From the IMG/VR virus record IMGVR_UViG_3300048924_000605, positions 1-64,000 of that record: 64,000 nucleotides of DNA, one strand, 5' to 3'. The notes beneath the pieces are model-generated. The model did no database searches and was not told the DNA's origin. It saw only the letters and a program-made list of their open reading frames with translations. This DNA is from a virus. Shown piece by piece: positions 21,889-55,763 of the stretch (within the stretch, counting starts at the first letter, position 1; each line of letters opens with the position of its first letter). The translations under genes and the position numbers were made by a program.

Positions 21889-22096
21889 GCGCCGCCTCCG
21901 CACGCACGAACGCGACCAGGTGCAAGCCCAACGCGTCGCCGGTCGCTTCCAGCGTTTCGGCGTCGATGCCGTCGCGCACGAACGCGCTCCAGTCCAGGCC
22001 GTAGTAGGCGAACCATTCGCGTCCGCCCTGCGCGCAGAACCCCGGCCGCGCACCGAAGCCCGGCGCGCGGCGAAGATGATCCAGGGTCACGATCAC
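21881..22096 (-). CDS. small tail assembly protein
   Basis: GFCAQGGREWF..GLDWSAFVRDGI..ATGDAL; translationally coupled to its neighbours. Confidence 0.75.
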   Translation of the reverse strand: MIVTLDHLRRAPGFGARPGFCAQGGREWFAYYGLDWSAFVRDGIDAETLEATGDALGLHLVAFVRAEAARG

Positions 22097-22329
22097 TTCT
22101 TGCCGCCCTTTTGCTTGATCGCTTGCGTGCGGTACTGGCCGACCCCGAGCACCATCCAATCCGAGATCCACACGTCGCCGAAGATCACCGCCTGCGGCGT
22201 GCCCTCCGTGCTTTGCGGAAACTGGAAGTCGCCGAACGCGGCCGGCTTCGGCTGTGGCGGTTTCGGCCGTGCGGCCGCCGAAACGAAATAGCTGACCAGC
22301 CAGATCGCCAGTTGGACCCATACGTTCAA
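22093..22329 (-). CDS. small tail assembly protein
   Basis: PQSTEGTPQAVIFGDVW motif typical of the gene that follows BR0599. Confidence 0.75.
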   Translation of the reverse strand: MNVWVQLAIWLVSYFVSAAARPKPPQPKPAAFGDFQFPQSTEGTPQAVIFGDVWISDWMVLGVGQYRTQAIKQKGGKK

Positions 22330-44537: not shown

Positions 44538-45074
44538 TTACTCCAGGCGGGCGACGAAGTCCCCGAGTTCGAACAGGTGTTGCCGCACCTCGCGCTCCAG
44601 CGCGACGTGCATCGAATGCGGGTCGATGCCTAGTTCGGCGGCGAGCATCGAGCTGATCCGCGCAGGCCAGTTAAGCCAGGCGTCGCGCTCCGCGCGCGCC
44701 AGGGCGAAGACTTGGCCGACCGCCTGCTGGCGATCGATCAGCTCGCCGCGCAGCTGCGCAATGCGCAGCTTGTGATGTTGGGCCTTGAGGACTTCGTTGG
44801 CGGTTCGAGCCTGGGCGTAGCTGTTGCTGGTGGGGACGCCACCGGCACCGTCGTCCACCAGCGTCGGTGCCGCCGCGCGCGCGCGCGCCGGCCGACTGCG
44901 CGTGCCGAGGCTCGACTGCGCCGGGTCGGTACTCGCGTCCCATTCCGCGTCGGCACGGACCGCGTCGATAGTGCCATCCGGCAGCGCCGTGATCCGTCCG
45001 GACTTGATTGCTTTATGGACGGCGGTATCGGACACGCCGCGATGGCGCCCGTAGGCGCGAATGGAAATACCCAC
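44538..45074 (-). CDS. terminase small subunit
   Basis: N-terminal HTH SIRAYGRHRGVSDTAVHKAI, GELID, ERDAWLNWPAR; directly upstream of the large subunit. Confidence 0.8.
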   Translation of the reverse strand: MGISIRAYGRHRGVSDTAVHKAIKSGRITALPDGTIDAVRADAEWDASTDPAQSSLGTRSRPARARAAAPTLVDDGAGGVPTSNSYAQARTANEVLKAQHHKLRIAQLRGELIDRQQAVGQVFALARAERDAWLNWPARISSMLAAELGIDPHSMHVALEREVRQHLFELGDFVARLE

Positions 45075-45147
45075 AGGTCGTCAATGGCAGGTCTGGGCCT
45101 CCGCGACCGCCGGCCATCGGCGCAGATTCGGATAAAAGGAAGAGGGA

Positions 45148-45179
45148 ACACCCCAACGCCCGGCGAGGCGTTGGGGTGT
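45148..45179 (-). terminator. hairpin terminator
   Basis: 13-bp stem ACACCCCAACGCC/GGCGTTGGGGTGT followed by a pyrimidine/T-rich tract on the minus strand. Confidence 0.6.
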
Positions 45180-45196
45180 GCGCTCTCACGCGTGCG

Positions 45197-45727
45197 CTAG
45201 TTGCGCGGTTCGAACTCAGCCGCGTCGCGCGCACGCTGGAGGTTCTTCACCGCCGCGCGCAGCCCCTTCTGGTAGCCGGCGTCCCGCACGTCCCAGACCT
45301 CCAGTAGCTTGATCCGTTGCAACAGCCGGTCCAGCTCATGCACCGGCAGCGCGCTGTACTCCGGCTCGTCGCCTTCGAGGTACCGATGGATATGCGTCAG
45401 CAGCGCGCGAAGCGTCAGCTCATTCGCGCCCAACTCGGTCGGCATCAAGCGGCGCTTGAACCAATCGTCTGACTGCTCGACGGCGAACTCCAACGGAGCC
45501 AGTTCGTAGCCGCAGCCTTCGATCATCCAGCTGATGATGTCCGGGTCCACGCGCCCCCTCTGATGCCCCATGCAGCGGGACGCCAGTAGGTGCGAGAGAC
45601 CGTAGCAGCCGTACAAATGCATCTTCACCTCCGGCTCGAAGGCGGGCACCGTCGACATCAGTAGCCGCTCGATGCGGTCGCCCAGCGCGCGCAGATCCGC
45701 ATTCGACTTCGCTATCCATTCGTCCAT
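45197..45727 (-). CDS. hypothetical protein (cassette 1)
   Basis: GAGGA RBS; downstream of the motif at 45768-45797. Confidence 0.6.
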   Translation of the reverse strand: MDEWIAKSNADLRALGDRIERLLMSTVPAFEPEVKMHLYGCYGLSHLLASRCMGHQRGRVDPDIISWMIEGCGYELAPLEFAVEQSDDWFKRRLMPTELGANELTLRALLTHIHRYLEGDEPEYSALPVHELDRLLQRIKLLEVWDVRDAGYQKGLRAAVKNLQRARDAAEFEPRN

Positions 45728-45865
45728 TTCGCTTTCCTCTTCGTCACCGCGCCGTCGCGGCGACGACATGAACGCTTCAAGTGGATTGAATCGCAAGCGC
45801 TTCCGCCCACGTCTCGCTACCGAGACAGCCGACGGACAGGAACAACATCTGTGGGAAGAACGAAC

Positions 45866-45894
45866 ACCCCAGCCCTATCATCGGGGGCTGGGGT
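45866..45894 (-). terminator. hairpin terminator
   Basis: ACCCCAGCCC/GGGCTGGGGT stem just downstream of the stop at 45910. Confidence 0.55.
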
Positions 45895-45909
45895 CTACGC
45901 TCTCCCGAC

Positions 45910-46158
45910 TCAGTTTGCCTCGTCGTTCAACGCCTTAATCACTGCGCCGAGATCCATATCAGGCCCGAAGTCCACGGCGCCCCGCTCGGCCAGTATCTGG
46001 ACGATGTTGACGCAAGTGGCAGCCAGCTGCTGTGCGGCGATCAATTCTTCGTCGCTGAGTTTCCGCGGATCGCCGTCGACCATATCCTCGAGAACGCCCT
46101 CGCAGTCCCTCAAGGCCACCAGCGTGTTATGGAATCGGCAGTACGACATGTTCGTCAT
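45910..46158 (-). CDS. hypothetical phage protein (NMSYCRFHNT; cassette 2)
   Basis: 82-aa acidic ORF downstream of the motif at 46198. Confidence 0.65.
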   Translation of the reverse strand: MTNMSYCRFHNTLVALRDCEGVLEDMVDGDPRKLSDEELIAAQQLAATCVNIVQILAERGAVDFGPDMDLGAVIKALNDEAN

Positions 46159-46287
46159 TTCTGTTCTCTAGGTTCGCCGCGTCATTGCGGCGAGCAGATG
46201 AACGCTTCCTTCGCCAAGGAAGCCAAGCGGAAGATGCGCCGCTCGCGAGTGAAGACAGGGTTCCGACAGCTTCGTGCAGCGGCGCGC

Positions 46288-46794
46288 CTACTCCGGAAAC
46301 TGCCCGAGCGCTTGCGCCAACCCGCTGACCGCGAAGCTGATGCCGTGCTGGTACTCGGCGTCGCGCGGCCGGAATACGTACAAGCGCTCGACCAGATCCC
46401 GCGCCTGCTCGACCCACTGGCGCGGCGTCAGCGCCGGCCGACACTGGAGATAGACGTCCATTTGGCCGGCCGCAGCGGCGAATGCAGCGCTGACGGCAGC
46501 GTTGCGCCGCTTGGCTCGCCGCCCCCTGAAGCCGCCCCGCACGCGCCGCTCCCACACATGCAGCTCTTCATCTGCGGCACGCACCCGCGCGCACAGTTCG
46601 ACCGCTTCAACGCGCCGCGCCCGGTCCAGGCGCGACCATGGTTTCAGGAACCGCGCCAGCGCCTCGCACGCCTGGGTCGTGCAGACCCCGTACTCCCACA
46701 CCGGCTCCAAATCGGTTGGCGCTTCTTCGACCAACCAACGAATCCGCTTGGGCAGCGTGCCCAGCGTGAACAGTGCGTCCTGTGCGTCTTGCAT
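46288..46794 (-). CDS. hypothetical protein (cassette 3)
   Basis: GGAG RBS before ATG 46794. Confidence 0.55.
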   Translation of the reverse strand: MQDAQDALFTLGTLPKRIRWLVEEAPTDLEPVWEYGVCTTQACEALARFLKPWSRLDRARRVEAVELCARVRAADEELHVWERRVRGGFRGRRAKRRNAAVSAAFAAAAGQMDVYLQCRPALTPRQWVEQARDLVERLYVFRPRDAEYQHGISFAVSGLAQALGQFPE

Positions 46795-47019
46795 CTGATT
46801 TCTCCGGCCACCGCCTCTTGCGGCACGGCATGAACGCTTCAATTTCGGCGAAATCCAAGCGGTGCCGCCGCGTTCTGGACAGCAGGCGGACAGCTTCGCC
46901 CGCTCCTGTCTGTCAGCTGTCCGGACACGCAGAATCGCCGCGCGCCCTAGCGAAAGCGCTTGGCTTCCAGCCGAACCGAAGCGTTCATGCGTCCACCCAA
47001 CGCGGCCAAGGAGGCCACC

Positions 47020-47406
47020 ATGAACGACACGCTATTCGCCGAAATCGCCCTAGAGCACATCGGGATTACCACACTGGAAAGTCGCAAGCGCGACGATCTG
47101 GACTTCTACAGCGTCGCAGTCTGGGAGCTTCGCGACGTCATGCGGTCGGCGTATCTGGCCGGATACGCCGCCGCGCTGCGCGCGGCGCAGGGCGCCGCAC
47201 CCGCATTGCCCACAGAGCGCCACACCATAACGGGCGAAGCCTGGCTAGGCGCGGGCGAAGCGAGCGACTACGGCGATGTTCCGAACGGCTACACGGTAAC
47301 CACCCTGCCGATTCCCGAGGTGGACCTGCTGAGCTACCGATGGCAGGAGCGGCGCGCTTGCGAGGTGTTGATCCCGATGGCCATCCGGCACCGCCGCATC
47401 GACTAA
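47020..47406 (+). CDS. DUF6900-like protein (cassette 4)
   Basis: IALEHIGITTLESRKRDDLDFYSVAVW..AYLAG; AAGGAGG RBS. Confidence 0.75.
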   Translation: MNDTLFAEIALEHIGITTLESRKRDDLDFYSVAVWELRDVMRSAYLAGYAAALRAAQGAAPALPTERHTITGEAWLGAGEASDYGDVPNGYTVTTLPIPEVDLLSYRWQERRACEVLIPMAIRHRRID

Positions 47407-47421
47407 GGCACATCGCCACCG

Positions 47422-47450
47422 AAGCCCCCGCCCGAGCGGGGGCTTTTCTG
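47422..47450 (+). terminator. rho-independent terminator
   Basis: AAGCCCCCGC-CCGA-GCGGGGGCTT followed by TTCTG. Confidence 0.8.
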
Positions 47451-47583
47451 TTCCGAACTCCGAAGCTGTCCGACACCTGTCCGTGAACGAGAACGATCGT
47501 TCTTCTTCCCAGAAACCGCTTGGCTTCATCCGAGAAGGAAGCGTTCATGCGTCCACACCAACGCGGCCACGGAGGCCACCACG

Positions 47584-47808
47584 ATGAACGCCAAAGACCT
47601 GCTCAACGACTACCTGCGCGGCATGGCGCAGCACGAGCGCGGCATCTTCACGCTGCTTAGCGAGGAAGAGATCACCGCCCTAGCACAAGCCGAATTGAAG
47701 CGGCGCGCGGCCGTCACGCTGCAGCGCTTCGACTCCGAGATCATCGCCGGCTTGACGACCGGCGACATCTCGCTCCACAGGGCCATCGCCGATGTCTGCA
47801 CCGCCTGA
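47584..47808 (+). CDS. hypothetical protein (cassette 5)
   Basis: GGAGG RBS; 74 aa. Confidence 0.65.
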   Translation: MNAKDLLNDYLRGMAQHERGIFTLLSEEEITALAQAELKRRAAVTLQRFDSEIIAGLTTGDISLHRAIADVCTA

Positions 47809-47983
47809 CGCCGAACTCTGGTTCCTCAAGGCGCTGCACACGTCGGTATTGCTTGCCGCCGCCAACGGAACCCTCGACCTCAACCAACTCGCCCGCGATG
47901 AGCTGATCCGTCGCGGGCTGGACCCCGAAGGCGAGTGGGTTGGCCCCAGCCGCGCGCGGGAACTGCACCACCCCAACCACTAA
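47792..47983 (+). CDS. hypothetical phage protein
   Basis: G.LDLNQLA..EL..RGLD.EG.WVG pattern; overlaps the previous gene. Confidence 0.6.
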   Translation: MSAPPDAELWFLKALHTSVLLAAANGTLDLNQLARDELIRRGLDPEGEWVGPSRARELHHPNH

Positions 47984-47997
47984 CTAGGAGAACAACC

Positions 47998-48579
47998 ATG
48001 AGCAACATCGAACTCACCACCAACCAGCGCGCCGTTTTGGAACTGGCCGTGGCCACCGAAGGCCGCATCGAAGCCTACCCCGCCGGCCTGCTGGGCGGCG
48101 CGCGCACCAGCGTCGTGCGCGGCCTGCTGCGCAATGAACTGGTCGAGCCGCACGACGCCGGCTACCGCCTGACGGCGGACGGCTACGCGGCCATCGGGGT
48201 CGAGGCGCCGCCCAGCAACACCGGCGCCGGCGGCAGCGACAGCAAGGCGCCGAACACCGCCGCCCCCGGGAACGAGACCGCGACCACCGCGCTGGTCGCG
48301 CCGAGCAAGCCCAATCGCGCCGCGCGCGGCGACACCAAGCTGGCCACGGTGGTCAGCCTGCTGATGCGCCCCGAGGGCGCCACCATCGCGCAGATCATGG
48401 CCGCGACCGAATGGCAGCAGCACTCGGTGCGCGGGTTCCTGGCCGGCGCGGTCAAGAAAAAGGGCTACACGACCACGAACAGCAAGGAAGGCGACGGAGA
48501 GCGCGTGTACCGCATCGCGACCGATAACGCGAAAGCCGATGCCGCAAGCGCGAATCCGCAGGCCGATGAGGAGGAGTGA
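47998..48579 (+). CDS. DUF3489 (winged-helix-like) protein
   Basis: TKLA..LLMRPEGATIAQIMAATEWQQHSVRGFLAG..RVYRI; AGGAG RBS. Confidence 0.85.
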   Translation: MSNIELTTNQRAVLELAVATEGRIEAYPAGLLGGARTSVVRGLLRNELVEPHDAGYRLTADGYAAIGVEAPPSNTGAGGSDSKAPNTAAPGNETATTALVAPSKPNRAARGDTKLATVVSLLMRPEGATIAQIMAATEWQQHSVRGFLAGAVKKKGYTTTNSKEGDGERVYRIATDNAKADAASANPQADEEE

Positions 48580-48720
48580 ATCCTAATGCGAGCCGGGCAC
48601 CTGCCCGGCTCGCTGTCTCAGACCTGTCCAACGCAATCTGCAGGGCGAATTACACGGAAACATCGCTTGATGTTCCGCCGCGATGAAGCGTTCATGGCCT
48701 CCCAACCACGGAGAACAACC

Positions 48721-49002
48721 ATGCACGACGCAGCATTAGCCAACGACGCCCACGACCTAACGGCGCTACCGGAGCGCCTGATTCAACTGGTCGAAGACAC
48801 CTTGTCCAACGACGAAATCAGCACCGACGCCGAGCTTGTGCAGTACCTGGCCCACAACGGCCTTTCCCGCGAGAACGCCCTGCATGCCCTGCGCTATCGG
48901 GAGATTTACCTCTCGAATCTCTGGGTCGCAGGATGCACGCCGATTCGCGGCGGCCTGCGCATCCGCCTCAACGTAGCGACGGGCCGCTACGAACTCGCAT
49001 GA
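48721..49002 (+). CDS. hypothetical protein (cassette 6)
   Basis: GGAG RBS; LSNDEISTDAELV. Confidence 0.6.
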   Translation: MHDAALANDAHDLTALPERLIQLVEDTLSNDEISTDAELVQYLAHNGLSRENALHALRYREIYLSNLWVAGCTPIRGGLRIRLNVATGRYELA

Positions 49003-49131
49003 TCAGGATGTCGCCGCGCGCTGCGCGGCGGTATTCCTGTCCGACCGCTTAGCGGACTTGGACAGCGGGTGTATGGCGTCTTGGCTTCCAGGCGAAAAGA
49101 AGCGTTCATGACCTCCCCAACGGAGACCACC

Positions 49132-49455
49132 ATGACGAGTCGAATTCTTCCGCCGTTCCAACTGCAAGTGCGCTTCAGCCGCAATCCTCGCAACGCCCGA
49201 GCGATGATGCGCGAGTTGACCGGCTATCACGTCGACCCCGAACTTGCCTGGGTCATCGAACAGAAGACGATGACGCAGTCCGAGTACCGCGCCTTTGAAC
49301 GAGATTTTACCCAGCCGCAACATTGGATCATGCCGCTCAACAGCCGGCCGACACACTGCATCAGGGTCGTCGCACCCAGAATGCCGACGCTCTACGTCCG
49401 AGCCGAAGGTGCGAACTACGCCCGTCTCGTTGGGCTGGCTGTCGAGGAGAGCTAA
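49132..49455 (+). CDS. hypothetical protein (cassette 7)
   Basis: GGAG RBS; ends LYVRAEGANYARLVG. Confidence 0.6.
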   Translation: MTSRILPPFQLQVRFSRNPRNARAMMRELTGYHVDPELAWVIEQKTMTQSEYRAFERDFTQPQHWIMPLNSRPTHCIRVVAPRMPTLYVRAEGANYARLVGLAVEES

Positions 49456-49486
49456 GTGCTGCCCCGGCGCGGCGCGCGGCGCCGCG

Positions 49487-50629
49487 TCAGGGTCGCAACG
49501 CCCTCAGAATTTCGGCGGCGACTTGCGGGACGATCGCATTGCCGGCGGCGCGCAATCGAGGTACTCGGGCGGGTAGCCCATGAGCCAGAAGACGAATTCC
49601 GGGGTCAGGGATCCGGCGGCCGGCGAGGGTTCGACCTGTCGTCCAAGCATCCCATTCACCGGTGCGCTGCCAAAGCTCGTCGCGTCCTTGTGATCTCGGG
49701 TCGTCGGCGTCGCCCACAGCGCCGGTGGCGCCAGCCCCAGCGGGTCGCCGTACAACGCCGTGTCGATGGCCTGCGCCATCGGGTGTTGCGTCAGCGCCAC
49801 CGTGTGCTCCTGCTCCGAACTCTGGTACGCCTGGGCCGGCAGCGGCGCCGTTGCTCCGCTGCCGAAGGACTGCCTGGGGCTGCCCTTCTCCCCGTCGCTC
49901 GCGCGCGGTGTACTCCAGACCGCCTTCACCACCCCCGGCAGACCATTGCGTCGCTCGGCCGCAAAGTCGCCCCGCTTCTCCGGATCGTTCGCCGTCGCGG
50001 TCGGCCAGACCGCCTTCGCCGCCACCTGAAGGCTGGTGATCGCTTTTCGGCGGCCGCCCGGCATCCGGCGCTTCATCGCCAGGTGCGCTGCCGGGGACTT
50101 GTTGTCGTCGTTCGCCACCGCGGTCGGCCAGACGCTGCCCGACGATCCAGACCCGATCTCGCCGGTGCGGGGCATTGACGGCGCAAGCTGGAACAACAAT
50201 CGCCCGGCTGGCGTAGCCTTCGCCCTCCAGGTCAGCAAGAACTCCGTCGAGCCCCAGCGCGATGAGCCCAGCAACGTTTTCGCCCAGGAATAGAGCGGGT
50301 CGCGCTTGTGCAATAAGGCGATGCAGTTCTGGCCAGAGGTGGCGGTCGTCGGCTTGCGCGCGCTGGTTGCCGGCGACGCTGAACGGCTGGCAGGGGAAGC
50401 CACCGGTCCAGAGCGGCGCGTCATCCGGCCAGGCCGCGAGTCGGGCGGCGTAGGCGAACCCGCCGATACCGGCAAAGAAGTGGCATTGGGCGTAGCCGCG
50501 GAGATCGTCTGCTGAGACAGATCGGATATCGCGGTCATCGACATCGCCGGTCGGGATAATGCCCGCCGCCATCAAGTTCTTCAGCCACTGGCACAGATAC
50601 AGGTCGTTCTCGTTGTAATAGACCGACAC
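49487..50629 (-). CDS. C5 cytosine DNA methyltransferase, alpha chain
   Basis: FFAGIGG (I), GFPCQPFS (IV), ENV (VI), HRRDRVW (VIII), GNAIVPQVA (X); TAG/GTG overlap with the upstream gene. Confidence 0.9.
   Translation of the reverse strand: MSVYYNENDLYLCQWLKNLMAAGIIPTGDVDDRDIRSVSADDLRGYAQCHFFAGIGGFAYAARLAAWPDDAPLWTGGFPCQPFSVAGNQRAQADDRHLWPELHRLIAQARPALFLGENVAGLIALGLDGVLADLEGEGYASRAIVVPACAVNAPHRRDRVWIVGQRLADRGGERRQQVPGSAPGDEAPDAGRPPKSDHQPSGGGEGGLADRDGERSGEAGRLCGRATQWSAGGGEGGLEYTARERRGEGQPQAVLRQRSNGAAAGPGVPEFGAGAHGGADATPDGAGHRHGVVRRPAGAGATGAVGDADDPRSQGRDELWQRTGEWDAWTTGRTLAGRRIPDPGIRLLAHGLPARVPRLRAAGNAIVPQVAAEILRALRP
49504..50544 (-). CDS. overlapping alternative-frame ORF, putative methyltransferase beta chain carrying motif IX
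   Basis: Repeated W(P/S/A)T(P/A) units and LTPEFVFWLMGYP; true start uncertain. Confidence 0.65.
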   Translation of the reverse strand: MSMTAISDLSQQTISAATPNATSLPVSAGSPTPPDSRPGRMTRRSGPVASPASRSASPATSARKPTTATSGQNCIALLHKRDPLYSWAKTLLGSSRWGSTEFLLTWRAKATPAGRLLFQLAPSMPRTGEIGSGSSGSVWPTAVANDDNKSPAAHLAMKRRMPGGRRKAITSLQVAAKAVWPTATANDPEKRGDFAAERRNGLPGVVKAVWSTPRASDGEKGSPRQSFGSGATAPLPAQAYQSSEQEHTVALTQHPMAQAIDTALYGDPLGLAPPALWATPTTRDHKDATSFGSAPVNGMLGRQVEPSPAAGSLTPEFVFWLMGYPPEYLDCAPPAMRSSRKSPPKF

Positions 50630-51870
50630 TAGGCAACGTCCTCGACCTCCGCACCCGCCGCGATGAACGCGACGCCGTCCGAAGCGCGAATCGCCTGCAG
50701 ACCGGTGTAGTCCTGCCAACGGCGAACGATCACGTCGACGTATTTGGGATCCAGTTCGATCAGCCGCGCGCGGCGGCTGGTTTTCTCGCAGGCGATCATG
50801 GTCGTACCCGACCCACCGAACGGGTCCAGCACCAGATCGCGGGTCTTGCTGCTGTTGCGGATGGCGCGCTCGACCAGTGCCACCGGCTTCATCGTCGGAT
50901 GCAGCTCGTTGCGCGCGGCTCGGTCGATGAACCAGACGTCGCCCTGGTCGCGCGCGCCGCACCAGAATCGGTCGTTACCGTCGCGCCAACCGTAGAGGAT
51001 TGGCTCGTACTGCCGCTGATAGTCGGCGTGGCCCAGCGTGAACTTGTTCTTCGCCCAAATGATGAAGGTCGACCAGCGACCGCCCGCAGCGCGGAACGCG
51101 GTCTGCAACCGGTCGAGCTCGGACGACGACATGGCAATGTAGATCGCGCCCTTCGTCACCCGCAGCATCTCGGTGCAGGTCGCTTGCAAGAAGGTGCCGA
51201 AGTCGTCGCCCAGGTTGTCGTTGAGGATCGGGCGGTGTTTACCGCGTAGCTTGTCCTTCGGGTTGTTGGCGTAGTCGACGTTATAGGGCGGATCGGTGAA
51301 CGTCATGTCGATCAACTCGTCCCCGAGCAGCGCGGCGTAGTCCTCGGCGCACGTGGCGTCGCCGCACAACACTCGATGCTCTCCGCAGGTCCAGACATCG
51401 CCTGGGCGCGAGATCGGATGTTCTTCCGGCTCGGGTGCCGCGTCCTCCTCCGTCTGACCTTCGCCCGATACCGCAGCCAGCATGTCCTCGATCTCGTCGT
51501 CATCGAAGCCGGTCAACGCCAGATCGAATTCGAGCGCGTCCAGGTCGGCCAGCTCCAGTTGCAGCAATTCCTCGTCCCAGTTCGCCCAGGTGGCGGAACG
51601 GTTCGCCAGCAGCCGGAAGGCTTTGACCTGGGCCTCGGTCAGTTCGTCCGCCAGGACGACCGGCACCGACTCCAAGCCCAGCTTGCGCGCAGCCTTGAGG
51701 CGGAGATGGCCGTCGACCAGTTCGCCGTTGCTACGCACCACGCACGGAATGCGAAATCCGAACTCGCGGATCACCGCGGCCATCTGGTCTACGGCGTGGT
51801 CGTTCTCGCGCGGATTGCGCGCATAAGCGATCAGCCGGTCGACCGGCCAGTGCTCCAGTTGCAGGTTCAT
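50629..51870 (-). CDS. ParB-N-fused N6A/N4C DNA methyltransferase (beta class)
   Basis: YARNPR..DGHLRL ParB-like N-terminus; DPPY precedes HPTMKP and DPFGGSGTT. Confidence 0.92.
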   Translation of the reverse strand: MNLQLEHWPVDRLIAYARNPRENDHAVDQMAAVIREFGFRIPCVVRSNGELVDGHLRLKAARKLGLESVPVVLADELTEAQVKAFRLLANRSATWANWDEELLQLELADLDALEFDLALTGFDDDEIEDMLAAVSGEGQTEEDAAPEPEEHPISRPGDVWTCGEHRVLCGDATCAEDYAALLGDELIDMTFTDPPYNVDYANNPKDKLRGKHRPILNDNLGDDFGTFLQATCTEMLRVTKGAIYIAMSSSELDRLQTAFRAAGGRWSTFIIWAKNKFTLGHADYQRQYEPILYGWRDGNDRFWCGARDQGDVWFIDRAARNELHPTMKPVALVERAIRNSSKTRDLVLDPFGGSGTTMIACEKTSRRARLIELDPKYVDVIVRRWQDYTGLQAIRASDGVAFIAAGAEVEDVA

Positions 51871-53846: not shown

Positions 53847-55763
53847 ATGTCCGCCAACAGCCCGTCTCCCGCCCATGCCGACGGTTCGGCCGGCCATGCC
53901 AAGACCGGTCTCGCCGGATTGGTGGTCGGCGCCATCGGGGTGGTGTTCGGCGATATCGGCACCAGTCCGCTATACACGCTGAAGGAAGCCTTCTCGCCGC
54001 ACTATGGTCTGACTCCCGATCAGCACACCGTGCTCGGCATCCTGTCGCTGGTGTTCTGGTCGCTGATGATCGTGGTGACCTTGAAGTACGTCGCGGTGAT
54101 CATGCGCGCCGACAACGACGGCGAGGGCGGCATCATGGCACTCACTGCGCTGACCCAGCGCACGGTCAAGCACAACCCGCGCGCGGTCTACGTCATCGGC
54201 GTCCTCGGCATCTTCGGCGCCTCACTGTTCTTCGGTGACGGCGTAATCACGCCGGCGATCTCGGTGCTATCGGCCGTAGAGGGACTGGAAGTGGCGGCAC
54301 CGCACCTTGACCGTTTCGTCGTGCCGATCACCGTGGCGGTGCTCGTCGTGCTGTTCCTGGCACAGCGCTTCGGTACCGAGGTAGTGGGCAAGGCGTTCGG
54401 TCCGGTGATGATCCTTTGGTTCGTTTCGCTCGGCGCGATCGGCATCTACAACATCGTCGATGCGCCGCAGGTGATCCGTGCGCTCAATCCGATTTGGGGC
54501 CTGCGCTTCTTCATGGAGCACAACTGGCATGCGGTGTTCGTGCTCGGTGCGGTAGTGCTGGCGGTGACCGGCGGCGAGGCGCTGTACGCCGATATGGGCC
54601 ACTTCGGCAAGTGGCCGATCCGTCTGGCCTGGACCTACGTCGCCCTGCCGGCGCTTACATTGAACTATCTCGGCCAAGGCGCGCTGATGCTAGGCAAGCC
54701 GTCCGCGGTCGGCAATCCGTTCTTCGAAGCGGTTCCGGCATGGGCGTTGCTGCCGATGGTCGGCCTAGCCACTGCGGCGACGGTGATCGCCTCGCAGGCA
54801 GTGATCACAGGCGCGTTCTCGGTCGCGCGCCAGGCCATGCAACTCGGCTACATCCCGCGTATGGCGATCAAGCACACCTCGCGCGAGACCATCGGCCAGA
54901 TCTACATTCCGGCGGTGAACTGGATGCTACTGGTGCTGGTGGTTGTCTCGGTGGTCGGCTTCGGCAGTTCGACCGCGCTGGCCACCGCCTACGGCGTTTC
55001 AGTGACCGGCACCATGCTCATCACGAGCGTACTAATGATCATCTATCTTCGCGGCAACTCTCGTATTCCTGCGCCTCTGTTCTGGTTGTTGGCGGCGATC
55101 TTCGTGCTGGTTGATCTGGCATTCTTCTACGCCAATATCATTAAGTTCATGGATGGGGCCTGGTTCCCCCTACTGCTGGGCGTGGTTCTGTTCACCATGA
55201 TGCGCACCTGGCGCCGCGGCCGCGAACTTCTGCACGAGGAAGTGCGCAAGGAAGGCATCTCGCTCGATAGCTTCCTGCCCGGCCTACTGCTGGCGCCGCC
55301 GGTGCGAGTGTCGGGCACGGCAATCTTCATGACCGCCGACAAGGGCGTGGTGCCGCACGCGCTGTTGCACAACCTCAAGCACAACAAGGTGCTGCACGAG
55401 CGCAACGTGTTCCTCACCGTCGAAACGCTTGGAATGCCGCACGCACCTAAGGAGAAGCGGCTCAAGATCGAAGCCATCGGCAACGATTTCTACCGCATTC
55501 TGATCCGCTTCGGCTTTATGGAAGTGCCCGACGTGCCGCTGGCGTTGATGCGCTCGTGCGACGCCGGCGGCGCCTACTTCGATCCAATGACGACGACGTA
55601 CTTCGCCAGCCGCGAGACCGTGGTCGCCAGACGCCACCGTGGCATGCCGATCTGGCGCGACCGCCTGTTCGCCTTCATGCACCGCAACGCGGCGCCAGCG
55701 ACCGGGTTCTTCCGCATTCCGGGCAACCGTTTGGTCGAACTGGGTTCGCCGGTCGAGATTTGA
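53847..55763 (+). CDS. kup: KUP/HAK/KT potassium uptake permease, moron
   Basis: [59 protein letters not shown]. Confidence 0.97.

What the first reader, a model, noticed from the sequence alone, without database searches (positions are those of the whole stretch)
45148..49455. Array of seven promoter-gene cassettes sharing the non-canonical motif CTTG-N15-GAAGCGTTCAT
Seen: seven copies with invariant spacing, three on the minus strand and four on the plus strand, diverging at about 46.9 kb. Each lies roughly 20-45 nt upstream of the start codon of a small orphan gene. Several units end in hairpin terminators (45148, 45866, 47422). Four copies contain the inverted repeat GCTTC-N10-GAAGC. Copies 4 and 5 share an extended leader through the RBS. 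Inference: a co-regulated, recombination-shuffled cassette array of small proteins, resembling host-takeover or anti-defence loci, placed beside two methyltransferases.
Basis: partly seen in the sequence, partly recalled or inferred. Interest (0 to 1): 0.8.

Follow-up and report, generated by a model that had tools for sequence, protein, structure and literature searches.

The report
Shared odd promoter heading prophage cassettes
Seven small prophage genes each carry their own copy of one strictly conserved, promoter-shaped 30-base signal that hundreds of related, little-studied phages share; it is laid out like a normal promoter but lacks a key base, and what reads it is still unknown.

Summary
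CTTG-N15-GAAGCGTTCAT occurs seven times exactly (0.12 expected), three copies leftward and four rightward, 22-40 nt before start codons, between the small terminase and two methyltransferases of a lambda-like provirus.

Each unit is a full cassette:
- a strong hairpin ending the previous gene;
- a tandem CTGTC-N6-CTGTC box;
- the core motif;
- leader, ribosome site and ORF.

The core reads as TTG, a 17-bp spacer and GTTCAT, with pyrimidine/purine at the expected start. It has T where sigma-70 needs A at -11.

The motif belongs to one phage family (AcaML1-like, in Lysobacter, many Betaproteobacteria and Acidithiobacillus). There it also heads DUF2924/serine-integrase operons. In three Lysobacter genomes exact copies lie only in such arrays, and the provirus has no sigma factor.

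The CTGTC boxes sit 18, 26-27 or 36-37 nt upstream, one helical turn apart, as activator sites do. An in-array protein (DUF3489) folds as two winged helices and is the best candidate binder.

Relatives differ by whole cassettes, so shuffling is supported. Anti-defence function has no evidence. No RNA data exist.

Closest known: PeSL cassettes of T4-type phages. This scan met the same motif before on other DNA.

The parts
45768..45797 (-). core motif copy 1 (heads g1)
   Evidence: exact match
46198..46227 (-). core motif copy 2 (heads g2), with GCTTC-N10-GAAGC
46830..46859 (-). core motif copy 3 (heads g3)
46959..46988 (+). core motif copy 4 (heads g4), with GCTTC-N10-GAAGC
47519..47548 (+). 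core motif copy 5 (heads the g5a-g5b-g5c operon)
48666..48695 (+). core motif copy 6 (heads g6)
49080..49109 (+). core motif copy 7 (heads g7)
45824..45839 (-). CTGTC-N6-CTGTC box of copy 1, 26 nt upstream of CTTG
46254..46269 (-). CTGTC box of copy 2, 26 nt upstream
46878..46893 (-). CTGTC box of copy 3, 18 nt upstream
46906..46921 (+). CTGTC box of copy 4, 37 nt upstream
47466..47481 (+). CTGTC box of copy 5, 37 nt upstream
48613..48628 (+). CTGTC box of copy 6, 37 nt upstream
49037..49052 (+). degenerate box of copy 7 (CTGTC-N6-CTTAG), 27 nt upstream
47490..47503 (.). perfect 14-bp palindrome AGAACGATCGTTCT between box and core of copy 5 only; the outer bases are kept in relatives' g5-type promoters
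45197..45727 (-). g1, 176 aa, all-helical family, paralogue of g3 (about 20% identity)
45910..46158 (-). g2, 82 aa, phrog_8760; multi-copy family in relatives' arrays
46288..46794 (-). g3, 168 aa, helical bundle with no fold match
47020..47406 (+). g4, 128 aa, DUF6900
47584..47808 (+). g5a, 74 aa, no family
47792..47983 (+). g5b, 63 aa, phrog_22970; motif-led in betaproteobacterial relatives
47998..48579 (+). g5c, 193 aa, DUF3489; two winged-helix domains joined by a disordered linker; candidate regulator
48721..49002 (+). g6, 93 aa, no family
49132..49455 (+). g7, 107 aa, no family
45149..45178 (-). hairpin after g1 (-33 kcal/mol, z -4.0)
45866..45894 (-). hairpin after g2 (-39 kcal/mol, z -6.6)
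47421..47452 (+). hairpin plus T run after g4
48588..48613 (+). hairpin after g5c, abutting the box of copy 6
49010..49031 (+). hairpin after g6; left end of the cassette-7 deletion seen in a relative
49466..49488 (.). hairpin after g7, between g7 and the convergent C5 methyltransferase gene; right end of the cassette-7 deletion

Best explanation
The array is a string of self-contained transcription units of moron or PeSL type. Each unit is built from a portable regulatory module that is private to one family of temperate phages (AcaML1-like).

The core motif is a promoter for host RNA polymerase. It has -35 TTG, a 17-bp spacer, -10 GTTCAT and a start about 7 nt further on. Because T replaces the A at -11, and the block GAAGCG just before the -10 is invariant, it most likely needs or is gated by a factor of the element itself.

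In the Lysobacter lineage, a second factor binds the tandem CTGTC boxes one, two or three helical turns further upstream. It acts like a class I activator. The best candidate is the array's own two-winged-helix DUF3489 protein, g5c.

The repeated modules, promoters and terminator hairpins alike, also serve as homology patches through which cassettes are gained, lost and swapped.

Shown: the anatomy, the conservation, the restriction to these elements, the phasing and the cassette turnover. Inferred: that transcription starts there, who binds, and what the genes do.
For: - Seven exact copies, all oriented toward a start codon 22-40 nt away.
- Across 172 related loci, 268 exact copies; 221 have an ATG-ORF starting 10-75 nt downstream. 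They fall into about a dozen families.
- Consensus over 179 unique sites gives TTG at motif positions 2-4, pyrimidine at position 36 in 91% and purine at position 37 in 67%.
- Variants tolerate changes at positions 1 and 4, but never at A29 or T30.
- There is no canonical sigma-70 promoter anywhere in the array.
- The hairpins close the units.
- In three whole Lysobacter genomes, exact copies occur only in clusters. The complete 6.4-Mb genome has two arrays.
- The CTGTC boxes behave the same way: 12 of the 15 exact boxes in that genome lie in the arrays.
- The provirus has no sigma-70 region 2.
- Box-to-core distance falls into three classes, 18, 26-27 and 36-37 nt, in 71 unique promoters. With the start at motif position 37, the box centres lie at -62.5, -70.5/-71.5 and -80.5/-81.5.
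- g5c folds into two winged helices: pLDDT 80, and Z 8-9 to ArsR/NolR, MarR and TubR for both domains.
- Its family is the commonest neighbour of the motif, in 73 of 133 loci.
- The three motif-bearing loci in a random DUF3489 sample score highest for its N-terminal domain.
- Cassette turnover is shown.
Against: - No transcription start has been measured, and no RNA run holds this DNA.
- GTTCAT lacks A at -11, so sigma-70 may not open it at all.
- Only 3 of 30 DUF3489 loci drawn from Pseudomonadota carry the motif. DUF3489 as such is therefore not tied to it.
- The CTGTC boxes are limited to the Lysobacter lineage, while the core is not.
- The class I numbers rest on an assumed start site.
- High copy identity could owe something to gene conversion between copies.
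Confidence: 0.6

Rival explanations
1. The motif is an ordinary host sigma-70 promoter, constitutive or immediate-early, that needs no special factor. Its strict conservation would reflect descent, gene conversion and recombination between copies rather than a dedicated reader. The CTGTC boxes would be a lineage-specific add-on.
For: - TTG, the 17-bp spacer, the final AT and the Y/R at the expected start are all sigma-70-like.
- The provirus has no sigma factor of its own.
- PeSLs work this way (PMC2839356).
- Recombination joints lie in the repeated modules.
Against: - T at -11 replaces the most critical base of the -10 element.
- None of about 300 copies drifts toward TATAAT.
- The same 11 bases are kept in phages of 52-67% G+C whose flanks are unalignable. 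Conversion within one genome cannot explain that.
Confidence: 0.15
2. A host alternative sigma factor, for stress or starvation for example, reads the motif, so the cassettes respond to a host signal.
For: - The -10 is non-canonical.
- The motif is the same in phages of many Beta- and Gammaproteobacteria, which would fit a conserved host protein.
Against: - No host gene outside the arrays carries the motif in three Lysobacter genomes.
- A loose version (TTG-N19-CGTTCAT) gives 16 non-array hits against 8 for the control pattern, much of it explicable as ATGAACG start-codon contexts on the other strand.
- The layout does not fit sigma-54, sigma-32, sigma-28, sigma-E or ECF consensus spacings. 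This comparison is from my own knowledge and is not a database test.
Confidence: 0.1
3. The invariant block is the loading site of a Q/AlpA-type antiterminator, or the operator of an Aca-like repressor, placed between -35 and -10. The unit would control read-through of the many hairpins, or damp a very strong promoter, rather than activate it.
For: - The AlpA binding element lies between -35 and -10 (PMC9371919).
- Each cassette ends in a hairpin, and many leaders start with one.
- A 90-aa HTH_17 protein heads the early operon in all six compared genomes of the family.
- The half-sites GCTTC and GAAGC flank the spacer in about 60% of copies.
Against: - No -10-like pause element is conserved in the leader.
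- The spacer shows no covariation, and the half-sites are 15 bp apart centre to centre, on opposite faces.
- The HTH_17 protein is much smaller than AlpA or Q.
- No homology to known Aca proteins was seen.
Confidence: 0.1
4. The motif acts at the RNA level, as a 5'-UTR processing or binding site, or as a recombination site of an integron-like system, not as a promoter.
For: - Position and orientation relative to ORFs would also fit a UTR element.
- Cassette gain and loss resembles integrons.
- In 68% of copies the motif ends in ATG, preceded by a purine-rich run.
Against: - No promoter-like sequence is conserved upstream of it. In some relatives only about 45 nt separate it from a divergent terminase start.
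- There is no covariation and no Rfam match.
- The element's only recombinase found is a serine recombinase, in an operon far from the array. No integron-type tyrosine integrase or attC-like fold was seen.
- 23% of copies have ATA instead of ATG.
Confidence: 0.05

Closest known systems
PeSLs (promoter-early stem-loops) of T4-type phages RB49 and phi1 (Arbiol et al. 2010, PMC2839356; read)
   Same: Both are small repeated intergenic units that combine a promoter with a stem-loop terminator. Both sit in front of ORFans in the most plastic genome regions, with stem-loops sometimes between -35 and -10. In both, recombination between copies inserts, deletes and replaces genes.
   Different: PeSL promoters match the sigma-70 consensus, and their activity was shown experimentally. 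PeSLs occur in lytic T4-type phages. Here the -10 is non-canonical and the element is temperate. The same signal also heads the integrase operon in relatives. A phased upstream tandem box is added in one lineage. Nothing has been shown experimentally.
Morons of lambdoid prophages (concept of Hendrix and colleagues, as restated in PMC5567305)
   Same: Extra genes are inserted between core phage genes, each flanked by its own promoter and terminator, which allows autonomous transcription.
   Different: Classic morons are single, carry unrelated sigma-70 promoters and often differ in G+C. Here seven units share one signal, G+C is like the rest of the phage, and the array has a conserved arm and a variable arm.
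Class I activator-dependent promoters (CRP-type geometry; my own knowledge)
   Same: The upstream site lies on one face of the helix at roughly -61.5, -71.5 or -81.5. Here the box centres fall at -62.5, -70.5/-71.5 and -80.5/-81.5 if the start is at motif position 37.
   Different: The site is a direct repeat of 11-bp period, as in OmpR/PhoB boxes, not a palindrome. The binder is unknown and the start site is assumed.
AlpA and Q antiterminator loading sites (PMC9371919)
   Same: A short, strictly required protein-binding element lies between -35 and -10 of an otherwise ordinary promoter, with terminators downstream.
   Different: No conserved pause-inducing -10-like element is present in the leader, and no AlpA or Q homologue was found.
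Lambda CII-dependent promoters PRE, PI and PaQ (my own knowledge)
   Same: One weak, activator-dependent promoter type is shared by the integrase gene and other establishment functions.
   Different: There is no TTGC-N6-TTGC repeat and no CII homologue was identified. The resemblance is of logic only.

Membership tests
sigma-70 (housekeeping) promoter | -35 element TTGACA-like | tested here: met
   TTG is invariant at motif positions 2-4. Position 1 may be C, G or A.
sigma-70 (housekeeping) promoter | spacer of 17 +/- 1 bp | tested here: met
   17 bp lie between TTGNNN (positions 2-7) and GTTCAT (25-30) in every copy.
sigma-70 (housekeeping) promoter | -10 TAnnnT with A at -11 and T at -7 | tested here: not met
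   The hexamer is GTTCAT: T at -11, T at -7. No other register gives TAnnnT. The consensus scan finds no promoter in 44900-49700.
sigma-70 (housekeeping) promoter | transcription start 6-8 nt after the -10 | not testable with these tools
   No RNA run holds the stretch. The only indirect sign is Y at position 36 (91%) and R at position 37 (67%).
PeSL-type mobile regulatory cassette | repeated intergenic unit of promoter plus stem-loop before ORFans in a plastic region | tested here: met
   The array lies between conserved terminase and methyltransferase genes and varies among relatives.
PeSL-type mobile regulatory cassette | gene gain, loss or replacement with joints in the repeated units | tested here: met
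   A 456-bp skip from 49027 to 49484, between the two hairpins flanking cassette 7. A switch of sequence at 45779, inside motif copy 1. Different cassette orders in relatives. These rest on single metagenome contigs and locus comparisons.
PeSL-type mobile regulatory cassette | sigma-70 consensus early promoter of a T4-type lytic phage | tested here: not met
   The -10 is non-consensus. The element is a lambda-like temperate provirus with a serine integrase.
moron | own promoter and own terminator around a non-core gene | tested here: inconclusive
   The anatomy fits for 5-6 of the 7 units. Promoter and terminator activity are not shown.
integron gene cassettes | attC recombination site downstream of each ORF and an IntI tyrosine integrase | tested here: not met
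   The motif is upstream of the ORFs and on both strands, with no covarying imperfect hairpin. The only recombinase found in the element is a serine recombinase.
class I activator-dependent promoter | activator site phased in helical turns upstream of -35 | tested here: met
   Distances of 18 (6 cases), 26-27 (36) and 36-37 (27) nt in 71 unique promoters. The absolute positions depend on the assumed start.
anti-CRISPR/aca-type anti-defence locus | homology of a cargo gene to a known anti-defence protein, or of the HTH gene to a known Aca | tested here: inconclusive
   Pfam, PHROGs, PDB sequences, fold search and the Atlas gave no named match. No dedicated anti-defence library was on hand.
host alternative-sigma regulon | the same promoter type before host genes | tested here: not met
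   Exact copies occur only in the arrays. The loose pattern gives 16 non-array hits against 8 for the control.

The most novel reading that the evidence does not exclude
A whole family of temperate phages of Beta- and Gammaproteobacteria runs a private transcription channel. In it, a promoter that host sigma-70 cannot open alone (T at -11) is unlocked by an element-encoded DNA-binding protein: a tandem winged-helix DUF3489 protein or the small HTH_17 early protein. This channel couples the integrase operon to a fast-turning array of accessory genes, possibly counter-defence genes. The same module doubles as the recombination adaptor that lets cassettes move between phages.
Probability: 0.3. 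Interest if true: 0.7.

Novelty: new variant of a known kind. Interest (0 to 1): 0.55.

Why it matters
If the motif is a factor-dependent promoter, three things follow:
- It defines the regulon of a very widespread, nearly unstudied phage family. That family includes AcaML1, Lysobacter prophages and prophages of wastewater Betaproteobacteria such as Accumulibacter.
- It gives a simple sequence tag for finding that family's accessory genes.
- It offers a clean test case for how RNA polymerase can be made to use a -10 element without A at -11.

The phased CTGTC boxes make an activator model directly testable. The cassette turnover adds a temperate-phage counterpart to the PeSL mechanism known from T4-type phages. 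The genes themselves remain of unknown function, so any link to defence is still open.

Tried and rejected
- DNA search of plasmids found nothing. DNA search of phages found only the DUF3489 stretch of AcaML1 and Epa5.
- Full-text search for the motif string returned only unrelated primers. Searches for DUF3489, DUF2924, DUF6362, DUF6900 and DUF6511 found nothing on function. The Paraburkholderia phage 437 paper does not mention the motif.
- Rfam gave only two sub-threshold chance hits.
- No RNA holder is listed for this DNA, so expression and start sites could not be examined.
- Spacer hairpin idea: pairs inside the spacer are no more complementary than expected from column frequencies. I dropped both the structure reading and the single-strand promoter reading.
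- The spacing does not fit sigma-54, sigma-32, sigma-28, sigma-E/ECF, the HrpX PIP box, a MerR-type 19-bp spacer, the CII site, IHF or a LexA box. I compared these by eye from memory and found no fit. These are not database tests.
- PhoB reading of the CTGTC boxes: they have the Pho-box period and core, but only 3 exact boxes lie outside the arrays in a 6.4-Mb host genome, and they sit too far upstream to replace a -35.
- Upstream ATG in the motif as a start codon: it is in frame for g4 only, and 23% of copies have ATA.
- DUF3489 as the universal reader: only 3 of 30 random DUF3489 loci carry the motif.
- Sigma factor in the provirus: none found.
- Fold searches for g3 gave only generic helical matches.
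- Searches used a wrong spacer length by my own miscount. One search serves only as a spacing control (2 hits), and one search gave nothing.
- The read-laying output is fragmentary. I used only the two clearest joints.

Full report
**Observation.** The pattern CTTG-N15-GAAGCGTTCAT occurs seven times without a mismatch in the window: at 45768, 46198 and 46830 on the minus strand, and at 46959, 47519, 48666 and 49080 on the plus strand. Dinucleotide-preserving shuffles give 0.12 matches, and none of 100 reaches seven. The 11-base right half has no one-mismatch relatives elsewhere in the window.

The whole record is an 80.7-kb provirus of which the window is bases 1-64000. It adds only one two-mismatch hit. 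That hit overlaps the start of an ORF on the other strand and looks like chance.

- The gaps to the start codons are 40, 39, 35, 31, 35, 25 and 22 nt.
- Copies 2, 4, 5 and 7 contain GCTTC-N10-GAAGC.
- Copies 4 and 5 share their leader through the ribosome site.

**Setting.** To the left lie a small terminase (phrog_57), a gpA-type large terminase, a lambda-type portal, an S49 protease and an E-type capsid protein, all leftward. To the right lie a C5 methyltransferase, a ParB-N6/N4 methyltransferase and an HNH nuclease. Beyond them come a Kup potassium transporter and a replication module (D5 primase, RuvC-like, PD-(D/E)XK, AAA_24). A DUF2924/serine-recombinase operon lies at 66.6-69.6 kb.

The nine array proteins are DUF6900 (g4), DUF3489 (g5c) or have no family of known function.

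**Anatomy of a unit.** The alignment shows an element that this finding does not mention: a direct repeat CTGTC-N6-CTGTC upstream of every core. Six exact copies of this box exist in the window, and all six are in the array. Copy 7 has a degenerate one.

Strong G+C-rich hairpins follow g1, g2, g4, g5c and g6 (-28 to -39 kcal/mol, z -3.0 to -6.6). The one after g7 is weaker, and g3 has none. Only the hairpin after g4 has a clear T run, and the simple consensus scan calls no terminator and no sigma-70 promoter anywhere in 44900-49700.

A unit therefore reads: hairpin of the previous gene, CTGTC box, core motif, leader, ribosome site, ORF. Copy 5 heads a three-gene operon (g5a, g5b, g5c). It alone carries a perfect 14-bp palindrome, AGAACGATCGTTCT, between box and core. 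The outer bases of that palindrome are kept in the g5-type promoters of relatives.

**The motif belongs to a phage family.** A stricter 20-base version found 55 stretches in GTDB genomes. These came from several Lysobacter species, often with several arrays per genome, and from many Betaproteobacteria (Burkholderiales, Rhodocyclaceae, Accumulibacter, Propionivibrio, Dechloromonas, Thiobacillus, Gallionella). Methylomonas and others were also hit.

The isolated phage AcaML1 of Acidithiobacillus caldus has the same gene order: terminase, divergent small genes, two methylases. It carries the variant CTTGGCTTC-N6-CGAACAGCGCGTTCAT three times in that array and once before its recombinase operon.

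Six genomes compared in full share a backbone. They are this provirus, AcaML1 and four IMG/VR records. The shared genes include DUF3489, the ParB-methyltransferase, DUF2924 plus a serine recombinase, a 90-aa HTH_17 protein at the head of the early operon, RuvC-like, PD-(D/E)XK and DUF6511.

**What follows the motif.**
- In the fetched loci, 268 exact copies, 37 one-mismatch copies and 11 two-mismatch copies were found.
- Of the exact copies, 221 have an ATG-ORF of 40 aa or more starting 10-75 nt downstream.
- The downstream proteins fall into about a dozen families: DUF6900, g5a, g5b-like, DUF3489, g6, g7, a g2 family, a g1/g3 family, and DUF2924 followed by a large serine recombinase.

So the signal is not specific to orphan cargo. 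In many relatives it heads the integrase operon at the edge of the prophage. In this provirus that operon lacks it.

**Reading the core.** The consensus of 179 unique sites is (A/T)(A/T)yc(G/A) CTTG GCTTC N5 cGGAA N GAAGCGTTCAT G. Among the mismatch copies, position 1 (C to G or A) and position 4 vary. A29 and T30 never vary.

The only sigma-70 register is TTG at positions 2-4, a 17-bp spacer and GTTCAT at positions 25-30. This puts T, not A, at -11. Seven bases after T30, position 36 is a pyrimidine in 91% of sites and position 37 a purine in 67%, the usual context of a start. In the g2- and g3-type cassettes a conserved stem GCCGC...GCGGC begins exactly at position 37. That would place a hairpin at the very 5' end of the RNA.

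The dyad GCTTC/GAAGC is conservation of sequence, not structure. Inner spacer pairs are no more complementary than column frequencies predict.

**Who could read it.**
- The provirus has no sigma-70 region 2.
- In three whole Lysobacter genomes, exact copies lie only in clusters. The complete 6.4-Mb genome has two arrays of about eight copies each and no exact copy elsewhere.
- A loose pattern (TTG-N19-CGTTCAT) gives 15 array hits and 16 others, against 8 for the control pattern. Much of the excess can be ATGAACG start contexts on the other strand. A host regulon is therefore not visible.
- The same core occurs in phages of 52-67% G+C whose flanks do not align. Gene conversion within one genome cannot explain that.

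I conclude that an element-encoded factor most likely gates a host-polymerase promoter. I could not name it. The candidates are g5c, the HTH_17 early protein, and small conserved proteins of the g5 operon.

**The CTGTC boxes.** They occur only in the Lysobacter lineage; other lineages have other upstream sequences. In 71 unique promoters, the distance from the box to CTTG is 18 nt (6 cases), 26-27 nt (36), 28 nt (1), 36-37 nt (27) or 38 nt (1). That makes three classes about one helical turn apart.

If transcription starts at motif position 37, the box centres lie at -62.5, -70.5/-71.5 and -80.5/-81.5. These are the positions known for class I activators (my own knowledge).

In the complete host genome, 12 of the 15 exact boxes lie in the two arrays. 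The binder is therefore probably element-encoded, not PhoB, despite the Pho-box-like period and core.

**g5c as candidate binder.** g5c is predicted with mean pLDDT 80 as two winged-helix domains (residues 2-69 and 111-180) joined by a disordered linker. Each domain matches ArsR/NolR, MarR or TubR DNA-binding domains at Z 8-9 (Foldseek probabilities near 1 but E about 0.02).

Its family is the commonest neighbour of the motif, in 73 of 133 loci. Among 30 DUF3489 loci drawn from 301 Pseudomonadota genomes, only three carry the motif. Those three score highest for the N-terminal domain of the g5c type. This fits a subfamily tied to the motif, but common descent of the elements would give the same result.

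**Turnover.** Relatives keep the terminase side (about 80-86% identity) and the methyltransferase side (78-88%), but differ between them.

The rightward arm is fairly constant, g4, g5abc, g6, g7, with g4 or g7 sometimes absent. The leftward arm holds two to seven alternating members of the g2 and g1/g3 families. g1 and g3 are paralogues with about 20% identity.

Contigs of public metagenome runs laid on the stretch show two clear joints:
- One contig joins 49027 to 49484. This removes cassette 7, with both ends in the flanking hairpins.
- Another leaves the reference at 45779, inside motif copy 1, and continues with a copy-6-like spacer.

These are single contigs and should be taken as indications.

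**Function of the cargo.** Nothing links it to defence or host takeover except its place beside the methyltransferases and its variability. g3 is an all-helical protein (pLDDT 84) with only generic helical matches. g2 resembles only viral hypothetical proteins. PDB sequence searches gave nothing.

**Comparison with the known.** The closest described thing is the PeSL of T4-type phages: repeated promoter plus stem-loop units before ORFans in hyperplastic regions, shown to be active and to mediate modular shuffling (PMC2839356).

This case differs in four ways:
- The -10 is non-consensus.
- The element is temperate.
- The signal is also used for the integrase operon.
- One lineage adds a phased upstream box.

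Morons, class I promoters, AlpA/Q loading sites (PMC9371919) and CII-type promoters each share one aspect.

Full-text searches found no paper on the motif or on the DUF families involved.

Earlier follow-ups of this scan describe what appears to be the same 30-base signal in other genomes, among them a Ralstonia prophage. They reached the same open question. Two first-stage notes on this same stretch had seen the CTGTC boxes.

**Verdict.** This is a new variant of a known kind, a mobile regulatory cassette. Its promoter is atypical and its reader unknown.

Noticed in passing
window 53847-55763 (+): A full-length Kup-type K+ transporter (K_trans plus K_trans_C, E 2e-189) sits alone on the plus strand inside the provirus, between the HNH/methyltransferase genes and the replication module. 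It is either a moron or a sign that two elements abut here.
   Followed up: no
window 49487-50962 and 49504-50544 (-): Two long overlapping open frames cover the C5 methyltransferase region. Pfam matches only part of the methylase model (positions 64-162 of 324) in the 491-aa frame and nothing in the 346-aa frame. Another note of this scan reads this as a dual-frame gene.
   Followed up: no
L180 5298-5603 (+) = AcaML1 JX507079.1 about 21967-22273 (-): In phage AcaML1 a motif-led ORF of 101 aa with a DUF6900-like N-terminus lies antisense to the annotated 'putative terminase small subunit gpNu1' (Gp33). Gp33 has no BLASTP similarity to this provirus's small terminase, so it may be a mis-annotation.
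   Followed up: partly
window 47490-47503: AGAACGATCGTTCT is a perfect palindrome of the GAAC-N4-GTTC type. It occurs only in the promoter of the operon that encodes the winged-helix protein, and its outer bases are conserved in relatives. It may be an autoregulatory operator.
   Followed up: partly
G000 66450-66604 (L008 about 1533-1687): The DUF2924/serine-recombinase operon of this provirus lacks the motif that heads the same operon in many relatives. It keeps only a similar CA-rich leader and a CTTG.
   Followed up: partly
G000 64401-64673 (-) (L229 1402-1674): A 90-aa HTH_17 protein heads the early/replication operon and is conserved in all six compared genomes of the family. In AcaML1 it is Gp9, 'transcriptional regulator'.
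   Followed up: partly
window 45075-45196: Only about 120 bp, mostly the g1 terminator hairpin, separate the array from the small terminase start. The late operon therefore has no obvious promoter of its own here, and the cos site may lie in this gap.
   Followed up: no
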